From Flavobacteriales bacterium (GTDB lineage Bacteria > Bacteroidota > Bacteroidia > Flavobacteriales > Schleiferiaceae), in NCBI GenBank assembly GCA_007693635.1, contig REDE01000127.1, forward strand, positions 2,095 through 66,094: a DNA stretch of 64,000 nucleotides. Reading direction: 5' to 3'. Below, piece after piece: positions 12,870 to 28,132 of this stretch. Within the stretch, counting starts at the first letter, position 1; every line of letters begins with the position of its first letter. The translations under genes were made by a program, and so were the position numbers. The notes under the pieces are model-generated. The model was given only the letters and a program-made list of their open reading frames with translations, was not told where the DNA came from and did no database searches.

Positions 12870-12943
12870 TAGCGAGGACGGGAGTTGAACCCGTGACCTC
12901 AGGGTTATGAATCCTGCGCTCTAACCATCTGAGCTACCTCGCC
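12870..12943 (-). tRNA. tRNA with anticodon CAT: tRNA-Met, or possibly lysidine-dependent tRNA-Ile2
   Basis: The minus strand reads GGCGAGGTAGCTCAGATGGTTAGAGCGCAGGATTCATAACCCTGAGGTCACGGGTTCAACTCCCGTCCTCGCTA. It folds as a cloverleaf with a 7-bp acceptor stem (G1-U72 wobble), D stem GCTC/GAGC, anticodon loop TTCATAA, and T arm ACGGG-TTCAACT-CCCGT. CCA is not encoded. Confidence 0.85.
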
Positions 12944-21362: not shown

Positions 21363-23804
21363 GTGCAAACCAACCCCTACTTTGCCGACGTAATAGTTCC
21401 TCTGGCGCTGCAGGGCATGCTCACCTATTCGATACCCGAAACGCTCGAACTCAAGGAAGGAGACCTGGTTTTAGTTCCTCTGGGTCAAAGAAAGCAAATG
21501 ACCGCTTTGGTCTACCGCATTCACCAAAACCCACCTCCAAGCGGGAAAACAAAACCCATTATTCAAATCCAAGGACCGGGAATCGCCAATCCCCAAACCC
21601 TTAAATTTTGGAGCTGGATCTGGACGTATTATATGTGTAATCCGGGCGAAGTTATTTCCGCAGCCTTACCCGGAAGAATCAAACTTCATTCAGAGAGTCT
21701 GGCTGTCTTTTCGCCGCTCGCTAAAAAAAACTTTAGCGCATTAGAAAATACTGCGGAACAACAAATCATGGCCAGTTTGAGGGAAGCCGGACAAATGAAA
21801 CTCGCCGATATTCAAAAACGATTCCCTACAAATTTCAACCGCGTGATACGCAAGTTGATCGATAATGAATTCGTCATTTTAAAGGAATCCGTTCATGAAC
21901 CTGACCCGCAATTTTTCTATGAAGTTATCCAAGCCAAAGAAAATTGGGAGGAAGTCATGGATAAAATCCTTAGCGGAAAACGAGCTCCCAAGCAACAAGA
22001 AGCGGCGGTAAAGCTCTATGATCTTTTACAAAATACCCAGCAACCTCATCACCTAAAAGAAACCATGCGAAATCTTGGAATTTCGCGTACAATCATCAAA
22101 GAATTAGTCAAAAAGGGTCTGATAGAAATCCACGAAATAGAACGCGGCAGATTACTGGAAAACACCCAAACGGAGAATGTATATCCACTATCAGAAGCTC
22201 AGCAAAAGGCACTAAGCAGCATCCGAGAAGGCTTTAAAAATCAACGTGTGCAGTTTTTACATGGAGTAACCTCATCCGGAAAAACCGAAATTTACAGCCA
22301 CCTCATCAAAGAAACCATCAACCAGGGGAAACAGTGCTTGTTGCTTCTGCCCGAAATAGCGCTTACCACCCAACTGATCGGGCGTATACGTAAGTTTTTT
22401 GGAGAAAAAGTTGCCGTCTACCACTCCCGAGTCACCGAAAAAGAACGTTCCGATGTATGGGAATCGGTGCGACAAAACCTTGAAGGCGCCTCCATTGTGA
22501 TCGGCGCACGGTCGGCAATATTTTTACCTTTTCACGACTTAGGCCTAGTTATCGTGGACGAAGAACACGACGGCAGCTACAAGCAAACCGATCCTGCCCC
22601 CCGCTACCAAGGAAGAGATGCCGCCATTGTGCTGGCAAAGTTGTTTCAAGCAAATATCCTTTTGGGCTCAGCAACGCCTGCATTGGAAACATTTCACAAT
22701 TGTATAGAAAAAAGGTACGACTACATTCCACTTACAGAACGCTATCAACAAATCAAACTGCCCAACATCGAACTGGTTGATTTTGGATGGGAGCGAAAAA
22801 AGAAACTTGTTCGCGAAGATTTTTCCTTGTATTTGTTGGAGGGAATAAAACAAGAACTTGAAAAAAAGAGACAAGTCATCATTTTCCACAATCGCCGAGG
22901 ATACGCGCCCATTACCCAATGTCGCGACTGCGGTGAAACACCCATGTGCATCAACTGTGACATTTCGCTAACCTACCACAAGCATAGCCATAGCATGCGC
23001 TGCCATCTTTGCGGTTACCGTGAGCAAGTAGAAGGCGCCTGTACAAAATGTGGGAGCATGGATTTACAAATGAGGGGTGCGGGAACGGAAAAAATCGTCG
23101 ACCAATTGCAGGAGTTTTTTCCAGATGTAAGCATAGATCGACTCGACTGGGATAGCACGCGAAAGAAAGACTCCTTTGAACAAGTTATTGAGCGCTTTGA
23201 ACTCGGAGAAACCGATATTCTTGTGGGAACGCAGATGGTTACCAAAGGACTCGACTTCAAGCACGTTGGACTCGTAGGCATTATCCATGCCGACCTAATG
23301 ATGAATATCCCGGAAATCCGCGCCACGGAAAGGACCTATCAACTCAGTATGCAAGTCGCGGGAAGGGCCGGCAGATTTGGTGAACAAGGAAAAGTCATTA
23401 TCCAAACTTACCAACCCGACAGCGCCGTTATACAGGCGGTAGCTTCCGGTAGACAAAAATCATTTTATCAGTCGGAATTAGCCGAGAGAAAAGACTTTTC
23501 CTATCCGCCGTATTCCAAAATGATTCGTGTTTGTATGCGCCATCGCGATTGGAATGTTTTACAACACACCGCAAATAGCTTTCGACCCGTGCTAGAACAC
23601 GAACCTTATTTATCGATGTTAGGCCCTGAACCGCCCCTTATATCGCGGGCCAAGAATCAGTACCGCATGGACATTCTCATCAAACTGAATAAAGACAGCA
23701 ATTATCCCAAACTCAAAAAGCGACTGCAAATATTAACGCAGCATTTTTTCGCCCAAAAACCTCACAACCAAGTTCGGATATATTTCGATGTAGATCCGAT
23801 GTAG
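21363..23804 (+). CDS. priA: Primosomal protein N' (replication restart helicase PriA)
   Basis: 813 aa with a GTG start. It has Walker A GVTSSGKTE, DEEH, and a Cys-rich zinc-binding insert CRDCGETPMCINCDISLTYH...CHLCGY...CTKCGS. Confidence 0.93.
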   Translation: MQTNPYFADVIVPLALQGMLTYSIPETLELKEGDLVLVPLGQRKQMTALVYRIHQNPPPSGKTKPIIQIQGPGIANPQTLKFWSWIWTYYMCNPGEVISAALPGRIKLHSESLAVFSPLAKKNFSALENTAEQQIMASLREAGQMKLADIQKRFPTNFNRVIRKLIDNEFVILKESVHEPDPQFFYEVIQAKENWEEVMDKILSGKRAPKQQEAAVKLYDLLQNTQQPHHLKETMRNLGISRTIIKELVKKGLIEIHEIERGRLLENTQTENVYPLSEAQQKALSSIREGFKNQRVQFLHGVTSSGKTEIYSHLIKETINQGKQCLLLLPEIALTTQLIGRIRKFFGEKVAVYHSRVTEKERSDVWESVRQNLEGASIVIGARSAIFLPFHDLGLVIVDEEHDGSYKQTDPAPRYQGRDAAIVLAKLFQANILLGSATPALETFHNCIEKRYDYIPLTERYQQIKLPNIELVDFGWERKKKLVREDFSLYLLEGIKQELEKKRQVIIFHNRRGYAPITQCRDCGETPMCINCDISLTYHKHSHSMRCHLCGYREQVEGACTKCGSMDLQMRGAGTEKIVDQLQEFFPDVSIDRLDWDSTRKKDSFEQVIERFELGETDILVGTQMVTKGLDFKHVGLVGIIHADLMMNIPEIRATERTYQLSMQVAGRAGRFGEQGKVIIQTYQPDSAVIQAVASGRQKSFYQSELAERKDFSYPPYSKMIRVCMRHRDWNVLQHTANSFRPVLEHEPYLSMLGPEPPLISRAKNQYRMDILIKLNKDSNYPKLKKRLQILTQHFFAQKPHNQVRIYFDVDPM

Positions 23805-23806
23805 AT

Positions 23807-25756
23807 TTATTCAATCCCTAGTTTGGATGCTTTGAGTCTAAGACTATTGGTTACAACCGACACAGAGCTCGCGGCCATTGCTGCACCGGCAATCATTGGA
23901 CTCAGCATAAAGCCCCAATACGGAAACAACAAACCAGCGGCAATGGGAATTCCCACGATATTATAGATAAATGCCCAAAACAGATTTTGGCGCAATCCTT
24001 TAACCGTAAATTTCGAGAGTTTTATGGCGGCCAGCACCGACTTAAGGTTCGATTTCATAAGCGTTAAATCGGCAACATCCATAGCGATATCCGTTCCGGA
24101 ACTCATGGCCATACTCACATTAGCTTTTGCCATGGCCTCAGCGTCGTTTATACCATCGCCTACCATCGCCACCATATAGCCTCGCTCCTGGCATTTCAAA
24201 ATATAGTCTGCTTTTTCCGAGGGCAGCACTCCAGAAATTACCGTTTCGATACCAACACTACGGGCTACTGCATTTGCGGTAAGCTGATGATCACCCGTCA
24301 ACATATGCACCTCGATGCCCATCGCCTGCAAACGAGAAATTGCTTTTGCTGAATCCTCACGCACCTTGTCACCCAAAGCCAATATTCCCAACTGCTGCTT
24401 TTCCGAAAAATAATACACCACGGTGTAGCCTTCATTCGCCCAATTGAGCGACTGTGCCTTTTGCTCTTCCGAAAGTGAAATTCCGTAGTCCCGCAACAAA
24501 GCTTCATTACCCACTCCAAAAAGAACACCCTCATGATGAGCTACCGCACCTTTGCCGGTAATCGATTGAAAGGAATTGATTTCAATCTCATTCTCCCTAT
24601 CCAAAAACAGGACAATTGCTGCGGCCAATGGATGCTCAGACTGCTTTTCCAAAGCTTTGAGAGGCGCACAGTCGGCATTTGCAGAGAATTGCGAACCAAC
24701 CACCTGCGGACGACCTTCCGTAATGGTACCCGTCTTATCCAAAACAACCAGATTAACCTTTGCGGCATTCTGCAAACCCCGTGCATCGCGAACAAGTACG
24801 CCATTTTCAGCACCCTTACCTATTCCAACCATAATTGCGGTAGGTGTTGCAAGACCAAGTGCGCAAGGACAAGCAATTACCAGTACCGATATTGCGGCAA
24901 CTATTCCCTTAGAAAAATATTCAGGACCTCCAAAAACCCACCATATAACCAGTGTGAAAATAGCCACCAACAAGACTGCGGGAACAAAATACGTCGATAT
25001 ACGATCTACGGTATGCTGGATGGGTGCTTTGGAAGATTGTGCTTTGCTTACCGTATCTACAATTTGCGACAACAAGGTAGAGGAGCCATCCTTGGTCACC
25101 TCCAAAACAAAACTTCCTGTTTGGTTGATTGTCCCGGCAAAAACTGTATCACCTTGTTCCTTAACCACCGGCAGCGACTCACCGGTAATTGCACTTTCGT
25201 CAATCCATGTTTTGCCTTCCCGGACATTTCCATCTAAGGGAATGCGTTCGCCCGGCTTAACACGAAGAAACATTCCCGGGTAGACTTCCGCGATTGAGAC
25301 CTCGCGATTGTCGTCTGCCAGCGTAGCCGTTGATGGCTGAAGTCCGATAAGTTTTTCTATCGCCTCACCAGACTGTCTCGTTGCTCTAAATTCCAAAAAT
25401 TTTCCTAGAGAAATAAACGCTATAATTACGGCTGCTGCCTCAAAGTAGATGTGCGGGTCAAGGTCGTAACGAACAAACAACGAGGGAACAAACATCGATA
25501 GTGAAGAATAGACAAATGCTACACCGGTACTTAATGACACCAGCGTATCCATATTTGCCTCACGAATTTTCAGGCGCAGCCAGGCGCGCACAAAAAAGTG
25601 TCGCCCCAAATAAAACATGACCCAAGCCGTTAGCAGAAATGAAACCCACAACCGCCAATCGATAGGAGTACCCGGAAGGCGCTGAGGCATCCAGAACATC
25701 CCAATTACAAAAACCGGAAATGCACCCAGCAGGGCTGCTATTGTCCGATTCCGCAA
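23807..25756 (-). CDS. copA: Copper-translocating P1B-type ATPase, membrane/catalytic body without its N-terminal metal-binding domain (see the A10 tract)
   Basis: It contains CPC (IACPCALGLATP), the phosphorylation site DKTGTIT, HP (SEHPLA), and GDGINDA. The ORF track start is TTG 25756. There is no ATG until inside the first TM helix. The frame stays open upstream through the A10 run to the TGA at 25792..25790. Confidence 0.85.
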   Translation of the reverse strand: MRNRTIAALLGAFPVFVIGMFWMPQRLPGTPIDWRLWVSFLLTAWVMFYLGRHFFVRAWLRLKIREANMDTLVSLSTGVAFVYSSLSMFVPSLFVRYDLDPHIYFEAAAVIIAFISLGKFLEFRATRQSGEAIEKLIGLQPSTATLADDNREVSIAEVYPGMFLRVKPGERIPLDGNVREGKTWIDESAITGESLPVVKEQGDTVFAGTINQTGSFVLEVTKDGSSTLLSQIVDTVSKAQSSKAPIQHTVDRISTYFVPAVLLVAIFTLVIWWVFGGPEYFSKGIVAAISVLVIACPCALGLATPTAIMVGIGKGAENGVLVRDARGLQNAAKVNLVVLDKTGTITEGRPQVVGSQFSANADCAPLKALEKQSEHPLAAAIVLFLDRENEIEINSFQSITGKGAVAHHEGVLFGVGNEALLRDYGISLSEEQKAQSLNWANEGYTVVYYFSEKQQLGILALGDKVREDSAKAISRLQAMGIEVHMLTGDHQLTANAVARSVGIETVISGVLPSEKADYILKCQERGYMVAMVGDGINDAEAMAKANVSMAMSSGTDIAMDVADLTLMKSNLKSVLAAIKLSKFTVKGLRQNLFWAFIYNIVGIPIAAGLLFPYWGFMLSPMIAGAAMAASSVSVVTNSLRLKASKLGIE

Positions 25757-25773
25757 ACGAAGGTAAGTGCTAT

Positions 25774-26010
25774 CTAAAGATTTTTTTTTTCAGCCAATGA
25801 ATCCGTATCCAAATCAAAGCCGAGTTTACGGATTTTTTCTCGCCAATTTTCCACCGGAGCTTCCCCCTCTACCCATTCAATAGTTGCCGTTTGATTGGCA
25901 AAATTCACACGCGCATCCTCAACGCCTGGGGTATCTTTCAGTGTATTTTCAATTGACATTGCGCAAGAGGCGCAGCTCATTCCCTTAACTGGTATATGTA
26001 TTGTTGGCAT
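25774..26010 (-). CDS. copZ: Heavy-metal-associated (HMA) domain protein, CopZ-like, or a detached N-terminal domain of CopA
   Basis: 78 aa with the metal-binding motif GMSCASCAMSIE. It terminates 3 codons after the A10 tract. Confidence 0.8.
   Translation of the reverse strand: MPTIHIPVKGMSCASCAMSIENTLKDTPGVEDARVNFANQTATIEWVEGEAPVENWREKIRKLGFDLDTDSLAEKKNL
25781..25790 (-). other. A10 homopolymer at the junction of the HMA ORF and the ATPase frame (slippery or error-prone site)
   Basis: The plus strand is T10 at 25781..25790, bounded by a (25780) and c (25791). The minus strand reads GCT GAA AAA AAA AAT CTT TAG in the HMA frame. Confidence 0.9.
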
Positions 26011-26089: not shown

Positions 26090-26097
26090 CAAAGGTA
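26090..26097 (-). promoter_or_regulatory. -7 promoter box TAccTTTG for copZ/copA
   Basis: The minus strand reads GGGACTACCTTTGTGG, about 80 nt upstream of the ATG at 26010. Confidence 0.45.
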
Positions 26098-28101: not shown

Positions 28102-28132
28102 CCGCAATTCGTAAGGATTGCGGTTTTTTTTT
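28102..28132 (+). terminator. Rho-independent terminator after rpmE
   Basis: The stem ccgcaat / attgcgg has an 8-nt loop and is followed by T9. Confidence 0.85.

What the first reader, a model, noticed from the sequence alone, without database searches (positions are those of the whole stretch)
25754..25800. copZ-like HMA ORF and copA ATPase body are joined only through an A10 tract: assembly error, split gene, or programmed -1 slippage
Seen in sequence:
- On the minus strand the HMA ORF (GMSCASC motif) reads ...GCT GAA AAA AAA AAT CTT TAG and stops at 25776..25774.
- The P1B-ATPase frame is already open from the TGA at 25792..25790. It runs through the same A10 run as KKKSLDSTYLRLRNRTIAALLGAFPVF...
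- That frame has no ATG until about codon 20, inside the first TM helix. The ORF track had to use TTG 25756.

A -1 ribosomal shift on the A_AAA_AAA heptamer, or one extra A added by RNA polymerase slippage, would fuse the two frames. The product would be a canonical HMA-linker-CopA of roughly 735 aa.

Established knowledge: A-rich heptamers and A9-A11 runs are classical sites of -1 frameshifting and transcriptional slippage. E. coli copA uses programmed -1 frameshifting to make a CopA(Z) chaperone from the pump gene (Meydan et al. 2017).

Inference: the polarity here would be reversed. The zero frame gives the chaperone and the shifted frame gives the full-length pump. One locus could then set a chaperone-to-pump ratio.
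Basis: partly seen in the sequence, partly recalled or inferred. Interest (0 to 1): 0.7.

Follow-up and report, generated by a model that had tools for sequence, protein, structure and literature searches.

The report
Conserved A10 slippage site splitting copA
In a small clade of marine-type Flavobacteriales, the copper-export pump gene is split from its own metal-binding head by a strictly conserved run of ten A's. Normal reading should therefore give a small copper chaperone, and a one-base slip on the A-run should give the full pump, which is the mirror image of the frameshift trick known from E. coli copA.

Summary
On the minus strand a 78-aa HMA ORF (26010..25774) ends 5 nt after an A10 run (25790..25781). 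A Cu-ATPase frame lies at -1 and is open from TGA 25792..25790. One extra A fuses the two into an intact 734-aa HMA-CopA.

It is neither an assembly error nor a pseudogene:
- Twenty-four other contigs, from about 24 different samples, fall into 8 sequence-distinct lineages. All carry exactly A10 in the same -1 arrangement.
- CopA identity between lineages is 61-89% and synonymous sites are saturated.
- A10+TC is the longest invariant nucleotide block in the 2.2-kb gene.
- No fused allele occurs in any protein cluster.
- All three segments (HMA, linker/first helix, pump body) are under purifying selection.
- No start codon is conserved in the pump frame. The first ATG lies at the end of helix MA.
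- The 80 more distant relatives (41-51%) are ordinary single ORFs with no run of 10 or more.

Best reading: programmed slippage. RNA-polymerase insertion of one A is most likely, because no conserved stimulatory RNA structure exists. A -1 ribosomal shift or ribosome sliding on A_AAA_AAA is not excluded. The unslipped product is a CopZ-like chaperone and the slipped product is the pump. No expression data exist, and I found no prior report.

The parts
25774..26010 (-). Zero-frame ORF: a 78-aa single HMA domain (MxCxxC = GMSCASC) ending AEKKNL*. Predicted CopZ-like soluble copper chaperone, and also the N-terminal metal-binding domain of the slipped full-length pump.
   Evidence: Pfam HMA scores 58.5 bits against a cut-off of 24.8. 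dN/dS is about 0.03-0.09 between close lineages.
25781..25790 (-). A10 slippage tract (T10 on the + strand). It contains the in-phase heptamer A_AAA_AAA of the zero frame (GAA AAA AAA AAT).
   Evidence: Exactly A10 in the window and in 25 fetched loci (24 distinct contigs) of 8 lineages. It is the longest invariant nucleotide block of the gene.
25790..25792 (-). TGA that closes the pump frame immediately 5' of the run. The pump frame therefore cannot be entered from upstream except by shifting on the run.
   Evidence: In relatives the -1 frame is likewise closed 0-8 codons upstream of the run.
25770..25776 (-). TAGATAG: two stops, in the two non-pump frames. TAG 25776..25774 ends the zero frame (templated A10 mRNA). 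TAG 25772..25770 ends the third frame (A9 or A12 mRNAs, tail KKIFR*).
   Evidence: TAGATAG is present in 5 of the 8 lineages. The others have TAA, or a stop 12 codons later in L089.
23807..25789 (-). Pump frame (-1): linker helix and MA helix starting at the KKK encoded by the run, followed by the complete P1B-1 Cu(I)-ATPase body with TGES, CPC, DKTGT, YN and MxxSS. Stop at 23809..23807.
   Evidence: TIGR01511 scores 599 bits against a cut-off of 397. The 3RFU alignment starts at fused residue 79. The AF2 model has helix 2-32, with mean pLDDT 78-90 over residues 1-30. dN/dS of the linker segment is 0-0.13.
25754..25756 (-). TTG used by the ORF lister as the pump start. It is the only conceivable independent start that would keep helix MA, and it is not conserved.
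   Evidence: This Leu codon is TTG only in WIN/L082 and L086. It is TTA or CTG in the other five lineages.
26090..26097 (-). TACCTTTG, a match to the Bacteroidetes -7 promoter consensus TAnnTTTG, 87 nt upstream of the HMA ATG. Candidate single promoter for both products.
   Evidence: The motif lies 27-87 nt upstream of the HMA ATG in 8/8 lineages, and there is none within -150..+120 of the run. The consensus itself is recalled from the literature and was not tested.

Best explanation
This is one copA locus that needs programmed slippage on a conserved A10 tract to make its pump.

Proposed mechanism:
- A single promoter upstream of the HMA ORF drives one transcript.
- mRNA that carries the templated A10 and is read without slipping gives a 78-aa HMA protein, ending AEKKNL two codons after the run. 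This would act as a soluble CopZ-like Cu(I) chaperone.
- In a minority of events the frame moves by -1 inside the run. Decoding then continues as ...AEKKKSLDSTYLRLRNRT... into helix MA, giving the full 734-aa HMA-CopA pump.
- Slips into the third frame terminate at once at the second TAG of TAGATAG.

Likely source of the shift: RNA polymerase adding one untemplated A (A11) is the most probable. A -1 tandem shift or ribosome sliding on A_AAA_AAA is less probable, and both may contribute.

Consequence: the locus would fix a chaperone-in-excess-over-pump ratio from one transcription unit.

Shown here: the anatomy, conservation of the run and of the frame arrangement, purifying selection on all parts, lack of a conserved independent start, and fused ancestry.

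Inferred: that slippage actually occurs, which machine slips, the product ratio, and the chaperone role of the short product.
For: 1. Conservation of the run. A10 followed by TC, with the pump in the -1 frame, occurs in the window and in 25 fetched loci. These are 24 distinct contigs from about 24 samples (NCBI, ENA, JGI, Logan) and fall into 8 distinct junction lineages.

2. Depth of divergence. Lineages share 61-89% CopA identity. Only 30-45% of codons are identical at identical residues, so synonymous sites are saturated. Genomic context also differs: rimO/priA, dnaB-lipoprotein, or AbiEii.

3. Nucleotide-level constraint. The A-run plus TC is the longest invariant nucleotide block of the 2.2-kb gene: 12 nt in the real DNA, counted as 13 in the A11-adjusted alignment. 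The next longest blocks are 8 and then 5. Lys AAG is used freely elsewhere.

4. No fused allele. Every hit of at least 60% identity lacks HMA, and cluster members are 581-642 aa. HMA-ORF clusters are seen on more than 60 contigs.

5. Fused ancestry. All 80 relatives at 41-51% identity are single continuous HMA-CopA ORFs, without KKK and without any run of 10 or more. The clade's post-run peptide aligns with their linker (Y..LK.RT), so it is coding from the run onward.

6. Purifying selection in the proposed frames. For L083/L084, dN/dS is 0.03 (HMA), 0.13 (linker+MA) and 0.05 (body). For WIN/L082 it is 0.09, 0 and 0.08.

7. No conserved start codon in the pump frame. The first ATG of the window sits at the last turn of the first helix (AF2 helix 2-32; hydropathy). 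The LpCopA 3RFU alignment begins 3 residues after the run.

8. One transcription unit. No TAnnTTTG motif lies between the ORFs, while one lies upstream of the HMA ORF in 8/8 lineages.

9. Mechanism. No conserved RNA structure flanks the run: the alifold consensus is -1.07 kcal/mol and single-sequence z-scores are mostly non-significant. This fits stimulator-independent slippage on a run of 9 or more. Runs of 9 A/T are known slippage sites, for example Thermus dnaX A9 and Shigella mxiE (PMC1088944). Ribosomes also slide on poly-A (PMC4363877).
Against: - There are no expression data of any kind: no RNA reads across the run and no peptide spanning the junction.
- Slippage by a Bacteroidota RNA polymerase or ribosome on A10 has not been measured. 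E. coli RNAP is reported to slip less readily on A runs than on T runs (abstract of PMC6260861).
- In the window, L082 and L086 a TTG 8 codons into the linker could start an HMA-less pump that retains MA.
- In four lineages an ATG lies inside MA.
- The clade is small: 4 HMA clusters and about 8 ATPase clusters at 90% identity. The number of truly independent lineages is therefore about 5.
- Assemblies report consensus only, so read-level tract heterogeneity is unknown.
Confidence: 0.8

Rival explanations
1. This is an ordinary two-gene operon, copZ then copA. The pump is translated independently by internal initiation or by termination-reinitiation after the HMA stop. The A-run is kept for another reason, such as a Lys-rich tail or an A-rich initiation enhancer as used by Bacteroidota.
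For: - Gene callers annotate two genes everywhere.
- A TTG (window, L082, L086) or an ATG (L083, L084, L087, L088) exists downstream of the stop.
- N-terminal metal-binding domains are dispensable for transport in several CopAs (recalled knowledge, not tested here).
Against: - No start codon is conserved in position or type. Candidate starts lie 24-99 nt from the run, which is too far and too variable for a Kozak-like A-rich enhancer.
- ATG starts delete or truncate helix MA.
- The peptide between the run and those starts is conserved, under purifying selection, and homologous to the linker of fused CopAs.
- The pump frame is closed just 5' of the run in every lineage.
- A Lys-rich tail would tolerate AAG, yet the run is nucleotide-invariant.
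Confidence: 0.1
2. This is a DNA-level phase-variable (contingency) locus. The A tract expands and contracts during replication, switching the pump ON (A11 or A8) and OFF (A10) in subpopulations.
For: Long homopolymers are hypermutable, as discussed in PMC1088944. The tract sits in a coding region of a stress-resistance gene.
Against: - All 25 assemblies, from about 24 samples and 8 lineages, have exactly A10.
- No fused allele occurs in any cluster.
- A phase-variable tract should show a spread of lengths, including ON alleles.
Confidence: 0.04
3. This is a sequencing or assembly error (true A11, an ordinary fused copA), or a recent inactivating frameshift (pseudogene).
For: A single homopolymer indel is the commonest artefact and the commonest inactivating mutation. 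The window appears to come from a metagenome-assembled genome: its RimO protein is held under accession TVQ77173.1, a MAG labelled 'Flavobacteriales bacterium'.
Against: - The same A10 is seen in independent assemblies made with different pipelines and in lineages that are only 61% identical.
- There is no second lesion in 2.2 kb in any lineage.
- dN/dS is well below 1 on both sides of the run.
Confidence: 0.02

Closest known systems
E. coli copA programmed -1 ribosomal frameshifting producing CopA(Z) (Meydan et al. 2017; summarised in PMC5009743, and PMC9548414)
   Same: Same gene family. The recoding site is at the same place, directly after the first HMA domain. The outcome is the same: a roughly 70-80-aa HMA chaperone and a full-length Cu pump from one locus.
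   Different: Polarity is reversed. In E. coli the zero frame gives the 834-aa pump and the shift gives the 70-aa product. Here the zero frame gives the 78-aa product and the shift is obligatory for the pump. The E. coli site is a short heptamer helped by downstream RNA structure (recalled, not tested). Here the site is an A10 run with no conserved structure. This CopA has one HMA domain, not two.
Thermus thermophilus dnaX transcriptional slippage on A9 (PMC1088944)
   Same: A homopolymeric A run of 9 or more within a coding sequence, stops close behind the run in the alternative frames, and two functional products. It is also the RNA-polymerase counterpart of a case that E. coli solves by -1 ribosomal frameshifting.
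   Different: In dnaX the templated mRNA gives the long product and slipped mRNAs give the short one. The gene family is also different.
Shigella flexneri mxiE and the orfA-orfB transposases of IS elements with A/T runs (PMC1088944)
   Same: Two overlapping ORFs. Slippage on a homopolymer is required to make the longer fusion protein, while the short upstream product is the default.
   Different: Those are a regulator and transposases, not a membrane transporter. In this case the upstream product is a known functional partner (chaperone) of the downstream enzyme.
Classical copZ-copA operons (Bacillus subtilis, Enterococcus hirae)
   Same: A small HMA chaperone ORF lies immediately upstream of the Cu-ATPase.
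   Different: In those operons copA has its own start codon and its own N-terminal HMA domain(s). Here the pump frame has neither. Its only HMA domain is the upstream ORF itself, which scores below the NCBIfam CopZ equivalog cut-offs.
Poly(A)-tract frameshifts rescued by polymerase infidelity in insect endosymbionts (Buchnera, Blochmannia; recalled from the literature, not checked here)
   Same: A tract of about 10 A's disrupts a needed gene whose function is recovered by transcriptional slippage.
   Different: Those occur in degenerating AT-rich genomes as tolerated lesions. Here the genome window is 44% GC and A10 is under-represented (1 against 2.9 expected). The arrangement yields a second product with a plausible function.

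Membership tests
P1B-1 Cu(I)/Ag(I)-translocating P-type ATPase (CopA) | Family-level profile match above the curated cut-off, plus the signature motifs TGE, CPC (M4), DKTGT, YN (M5) and MxxSS (M6) | tested here: met
   TIGR01511 scores 599 bits (cut-off 397) and TIGR01525 scores 601 bits (cut-off 346). Pfam E1-E2_ATPase and Hydrolase both match. PDB 3RFU matches at E=1e-164. ITGES, ACPCALG, DKTGT, FIYN and MAASSVS are visible in the translation. The E. coli CopA equivalog NF007952 scores 672 against 1316, so that equivalog is not met. This is a CopA-type pump, not an E. coli-type orthologue.
P1B-1 Cu(I)/Ag(I)-translocating P-type ATPase (CopA) | Eight TM helices including the N-terminal MA/MB pair, encoded in one ORF with an N-terminal HMA domain | tested here: not met
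   MA/MB are present. HMA and the pump body are in different frames in all 8 lineages. They become one ORF only after a 1-nt slip.
CopZ-type copper metallochaperone | Free-standing protein of about 65-80 aa with an HMA fold and MxCxxC | tested here: met
   78 aa, GMSCASC, Pfam HMA residues 7-66 covering profile positions 3-62 of 62.
CopZ-type copper metallochaperone | Match to curated CopZ equivalog models above cut-off | tested here: not met
   NF047957 scores 49.7 against 85, NF033795 scores 48.1 against 91, and NF033794 scores 45.8 against 95. By descent it is the pump's own MBD. The chaperone role is inferred.
Programmed transcriptional slippage | Homopolymeric A or T run of about 9 or more at the junction of two overlapping ORFs, whose fusion is homologous to single-ORF proteins | tested here: met
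   A10. Fusion gives 734 aa, collinear with 80 single-ORF CopAs.
Programmed transcriptional slippage | Run and frame arrangement conserved among diverged orthologues beyond what the coding constraint requires | tested here: met
   8 lineages and 25 assemblies all have A10. It is the longest invariant block in the gene, and synonymous sites are saturated.
Programmed transcriptional slippage | mRNA population heterogeneous in run length | not testable with these tools
   No transcript reads are available.
Programmed -1 ribosomal frameshifting | In-phase X_XXY_YYZ heptamer | tested here: met
   GA A_AAA_AAA AT in the HMA frame in all lineages.
Programmed -1 ribosomal frameshifting | Conserved stimulatory RNA structure 5-9 nt downstream (or another stimulator) | tested here: not met
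   RNAalifold gives a consensus of -1.07 kcal/mol with no helix near the run. Six of seven single-sequence folds are not significant, and the hairpins found are 40 nt or more away and not shared.
Phase-variable contingency locus | Tract-length polymorphism among strains or populations, with ON and OFF alleles | tested here: not met
   All 25 assemblies have A10. There are no fused alleles. Read-level variation is not testable.

The most novel reading that the evidence does not exclude
A membrane copper pump is expressed only through obligatory programmed slippage on a homopolymer, while the default product of the same locus is its partner chaperone. This would be an independent, mechanistically different and polarity-reversed solution to the chaperone/pump problem that E. 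coli solves by -1 frameshifting in copA. It would parallel the dnaX pair (E. coli frameshift against Thermus slippage). It would also be the first such cellular, non-IS case that I could find for Bacteroidota. The slip rate would hard-wire the chaperone:pump stoichiometry, and cell state might tune it.
Probability: 0.7. Interest if true: 0.78.

Novelty: new variant of a known kind. Interest (0 to 1): 0.7.

Why it matters
- It would show that making a copper chaperone and a copper pump from one gene by recoding has evolved at least twice, with opposite polarity and probably at a different step of gene expression. That would be strong evidence that the coupled chaperone:pump ratio is itself under selection.
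- It offers a simple natural system, with no RNA structure and only an A10 run, for measuring transcriptional slippage or poly-A sliding in Bacteroidota. Translation initiation and promoters in that phylum are already unusual.
- It has a practical annotation consequence. In these genomes the pump is currently called as a truncated, HMA-less ATPase of 626-642 aa, often missing helix MA, next to an 'HMA domain protein'. Pipelines could mistake this for a pseudogene.

Tried and rejected
- Metagenome-wide DNA pattern scan (A9+TC ... PVF.IG). It returned 4 stretches, all chance matches in non-copA sequence.
- Genome-contig scan with the fused protein. These were useful as the fused outgroup, but the scan did not recover the clade itself.
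- HMA-ORF search, single sequence and profile. These found only four 90% clusters of the clade, followed by a steep score drop. The clade is narrow.
- Conserved RNA structure around the run. None was found.
- Rfam scan on the window. It found only one tRNA, at 12870-12943.
- Sigma-70 promoter and terminator scan. Counts were no better than shuffles, and the consensus is the wrong type for Bacteroidota.
- Second copA or HMA gene in the window. None was found.
- Literature. No paper holds slippage, copZ and copA together. Neither copA nor a heavy-metal ATPase appears in the GeneTack frameshift-cluster paper or its held supplements, nor in the 9A/9T survey. The Meydan 2017 paper itself is not held.
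- Rejected explanations: assembly error, pseudogene, phase variation and A-rich initiation enhancer. See the rival explanations.
Full report
**1. What is in the window**

All features are on the minus strand.
- A 78-aa ORF (26010..25774) encodes a complete heavy-metal-associated domain (GMSCASC). It ends GCT GAA AAA AAA AAT CTT TAG.
- The ten A's occupy 25790..25781 and are the longest homopolymer in the 64-kb window.
- The frame at -1 to the HMA frame is opened by TGA 25792..25790. It reads KKKSLDSTYLRLRNRTIAALLGAFPVFVIGMFWM... and continues through a complete P-type ATPase to the stop at 23809..23807.
- Adding one A produces one uninterrupted 734-aa protein. Its domains are HMA, E1-E2_ATPase and Hydrolase.
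- It scores above the curated cut-off for copper-translocating P1B ATPases: TIGR01511 gives 599 bits against 397.
- It matches Legionella CopA (PDB 3RFU) at E=1e-164.

The first ATG of the pump frame is codon 31 from the TGA, and the fusion is 734 aa.

One A10 in 64 kb is not itself beyond chance. One was observed against 2.9 expected in dinucleotide-preserving shuffles.

**2. Not an artefact and not a pseudogene**

A protein search with the conceptual fusion gave two kinds of hit:
- every hit of 60% identity or more (P0001-P0008) is a 581-642-aa ATPase without an HMA domain;
- every full-coverage hit is 53% identical or less.

I fetched the contigs behind these proteins and behind the HMA ORF clusters. 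This gave 25 loci, which are 24 distinct contigs from about 24 samples held by NCBI, ENA, JGI and Logan.
- Every locus has exactly A10 followed by TC, with the pump in the -1 frame.
- The loci fall into 8 distinct junction sequences.
- CopA identity between lineages is 61-89%. Only 30-45% of codons are identical at identical residues, so synonymous sites are saturated.
- The flanking genes differ between subgroups: rimO/priA, dnaB plus a lipoprotein gene, or AbiEii.

In a codon alignment of six lineages, the A-run plus TC is the longest invariant nucleotide block in the whole 2.2-kb gene. It is 12 nt in the real DNA and was counted as 13 in the A11-adjusted alignment. The next longest blocks are 8 nt and then 5 nt. 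Lys AAG is used 10-18 times elsewhere in each of the six genes.

No cluster contains a fused allele of about 735-739 aa. The HMA-ORF clusters are recorded on more than 60 contigs.

None of the eight lineages carries a second lesion. dN/dS is low in all three parts:
- L083 against L084: HMA 0.03, linker plus first helix 0.13, body 0.05.
- Window against L082: 0.09, 0 and 0.08.

**3. The ancestral state is a fused gene**

- Eighty relatives at 41-51% identity from across Bacteroidota each have one continuous HMA-CopA ORF.
- None has a homopolymer of 10 or more anywhere in the gene.
- None has the KKK motif at the junction.
- In that alignment the clade's peptide just after the run (KKKS.D...Y.RLK.RT...) lines up with the linker of the fused proteins (...Y..LK.RT...).
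- The pump frame is therefore coding from the run onward.

**4. No independent way into the pump frame**

- The pump frame is closed 0-8 codons upstream of the run in each lineage.
- No ATG, GTG or TTG is conserved downstream. The Leu codon that is TTG in the window, L082 and L086 is TTA or CTG elsewhere. An ATG present in four lineages is CTG or TTG in the others and lies inside the first helix.
- The LpCopA alignment starts three residues after the run.
- An AlphaFold model of the pump-frame ORF has a continuous helix over residues 2-32, with block pLDDT of 78-90. The hydropathy peak lies at residues 15-31.
- The window's first ATG (residue 31) is at the end of helix MA, so starting there would remove a transmembrane helix.
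- The Bacteroidetes -7 promoter motif TAnnTTTG (a consensus recalled from the literature) occurs 27-87 nt upstream of the HMA start in 8/8 lineages. It never occurs within -150..+120 of the run. This is consistent with one transcription unit.

**5. Mechanism**

The zero frame contains the in-phase heptamer A_AAA_AAA, so a tandem -1 ribosomal shift is formally possible. Ribosomes are also known to slide on poly-A (PMC4363877).

However, there is no conserved RNA structure on either side of the run. The alifold consensus is -1.07 kcal/mol. Single-sequence folds are mostly not better than shuffles and are not shared between lineages.

Runs of nine or more A/T are the classical substrate for stimulator-independent RNA-polymerase slippage. 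Examples are Thermus dnaX and Shigella mxiE (PMC1088944).

I therefore rank the mechanisms as follows:
1. Insertion of one untemplated A (A11 mRNA).
2. Ribosomal -1 shift or sliding.

Both give the same protein, ...AEKKKSLD....

Five of the eight lineages have TAGATAG right after the run. This places a stop in each of the two non-pump frames, so all unproductive slips terminate at once. Thermus dnaX has a similar arrangement, with a stop codon located close 3' of the A run.

**6. Function**

The default product is a free HMA domain with a short Lys-rich tail. By analogy with CopZ and with E. coli CopA(Z), it would bind Cu(I) in the cytosol and hand it to the pump. It scores below the curated CopZ equivalog cut-offs, so the chaperone role is an inference.

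The slipped product is the canonical pump. Because slipping is the minority event, the locus would produce chaperone in excess over pump from one promoter.

**7. Comparison with what is known**

- The nearest case is E. coli copA. There, efficient -1 ribosomal frameshifting just after the first HMA domain yields a 70-aa chaperone instead of the 834-aa pump (PMC5009743; PMC9548414).
- In this clade the site is in the equivalent place and the two products are equivalent.
- Three things differ: the polarity is reversed, the slippery element is a homopolymer, and no stimulator is evident.
- The relationship resembles the dnaX pair, where E. coli uses a frameshift and Thermus uses A9 slippage.
- In its short-default, long-by-slip logic it resembles mxiE and IS orfA-orfB.

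I found no report of this arrangement. No paper in the held library combines slippage, copZ and copA. The large surveys of conserved frameshifts and of 9A/9T genes do not mention a copper or heavy-metal ATPase. The held library is incomplete, and Meydan 2017 could not be read.

**8. Verdict**

This is a real, conserved and very probably programmed recoding site. It is a new variant of a known kind.

Confidence that slippage at the A10 is how the pump is made is about 0.8. Of that, roughly two thirds goes to RNA polymerase and one third to the ribosome.

The main caveats are the complete lack of expression data and the narrowness of the clade. The clade consists of Flavobacteriales/'Cryomorphaceae' MAGs, and the window is apparently from an NCBI MAG labelled 'Flavobacteriales bacterium'.

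Noticed in passing
L083 1400-1408; L084 1336-1344; L086 1244-1252 (relatives, not the window): In one subgroup a 426-aa predicted lipoprotein gene lies just upstream of HMA-copA on the same strand. It has no Pfam family. Directly after its lipobox Cys (...LFWHC|SKKN) it carries an in-frame, nucleotide-conserved A9. This is a second conserved long A-run in the same neighbourhood.
   Followed up: partly
window 28124-28132 (+ strand T9): This is the only other homopolymer of 9 or more in the window. It is intergenic, next to a GC-rich hairpin downstream of rpmE (L31), so it is probably part of a terminator. It would serve as an internal control for homopolymer read errors.
   Followed up: partly
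L100-L109 versus L083/L102: The same HMA ORF (P0265) and the same 641-aa ATPase length occur downstream of an AbiEii toxin gene in most samples. In one contig (L083/L102) they lie downstream of the lipoprotein gene. The copA locus therefore sits in a variable, possibly mobile, context.
   Followed up: no
window 23804-23809: priA (21363..23804, +) and the pump ORF (stop codon at 23809..23807, -) converge with only 2 nt between their stop codons. No terminator-like hairpin lies between them.
   Followed up: no
window 25713-25730 (-): A terminator-like hairpin plus T-run lies about 50 nt downstream of the A10, inside the MA coding region (GAFPVFVIG). The local fold is -21.8 kcal/mol with z = -1.5, and it is not conserved in relatives. 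It is probably a by-product of the Phe/Val codons.
   Followed up: partly
L014, codon 77 of the stop-to-stop ORF: One of the 80 fused relatives (a Winogradskyella MAG) has an in-frame A9 in the 5' part of its copA ORF. That is the longest run among the fused genes. Its position relative to the HMA domain was not mapped, and it was not examined for a truncated product.
   Followed up: no
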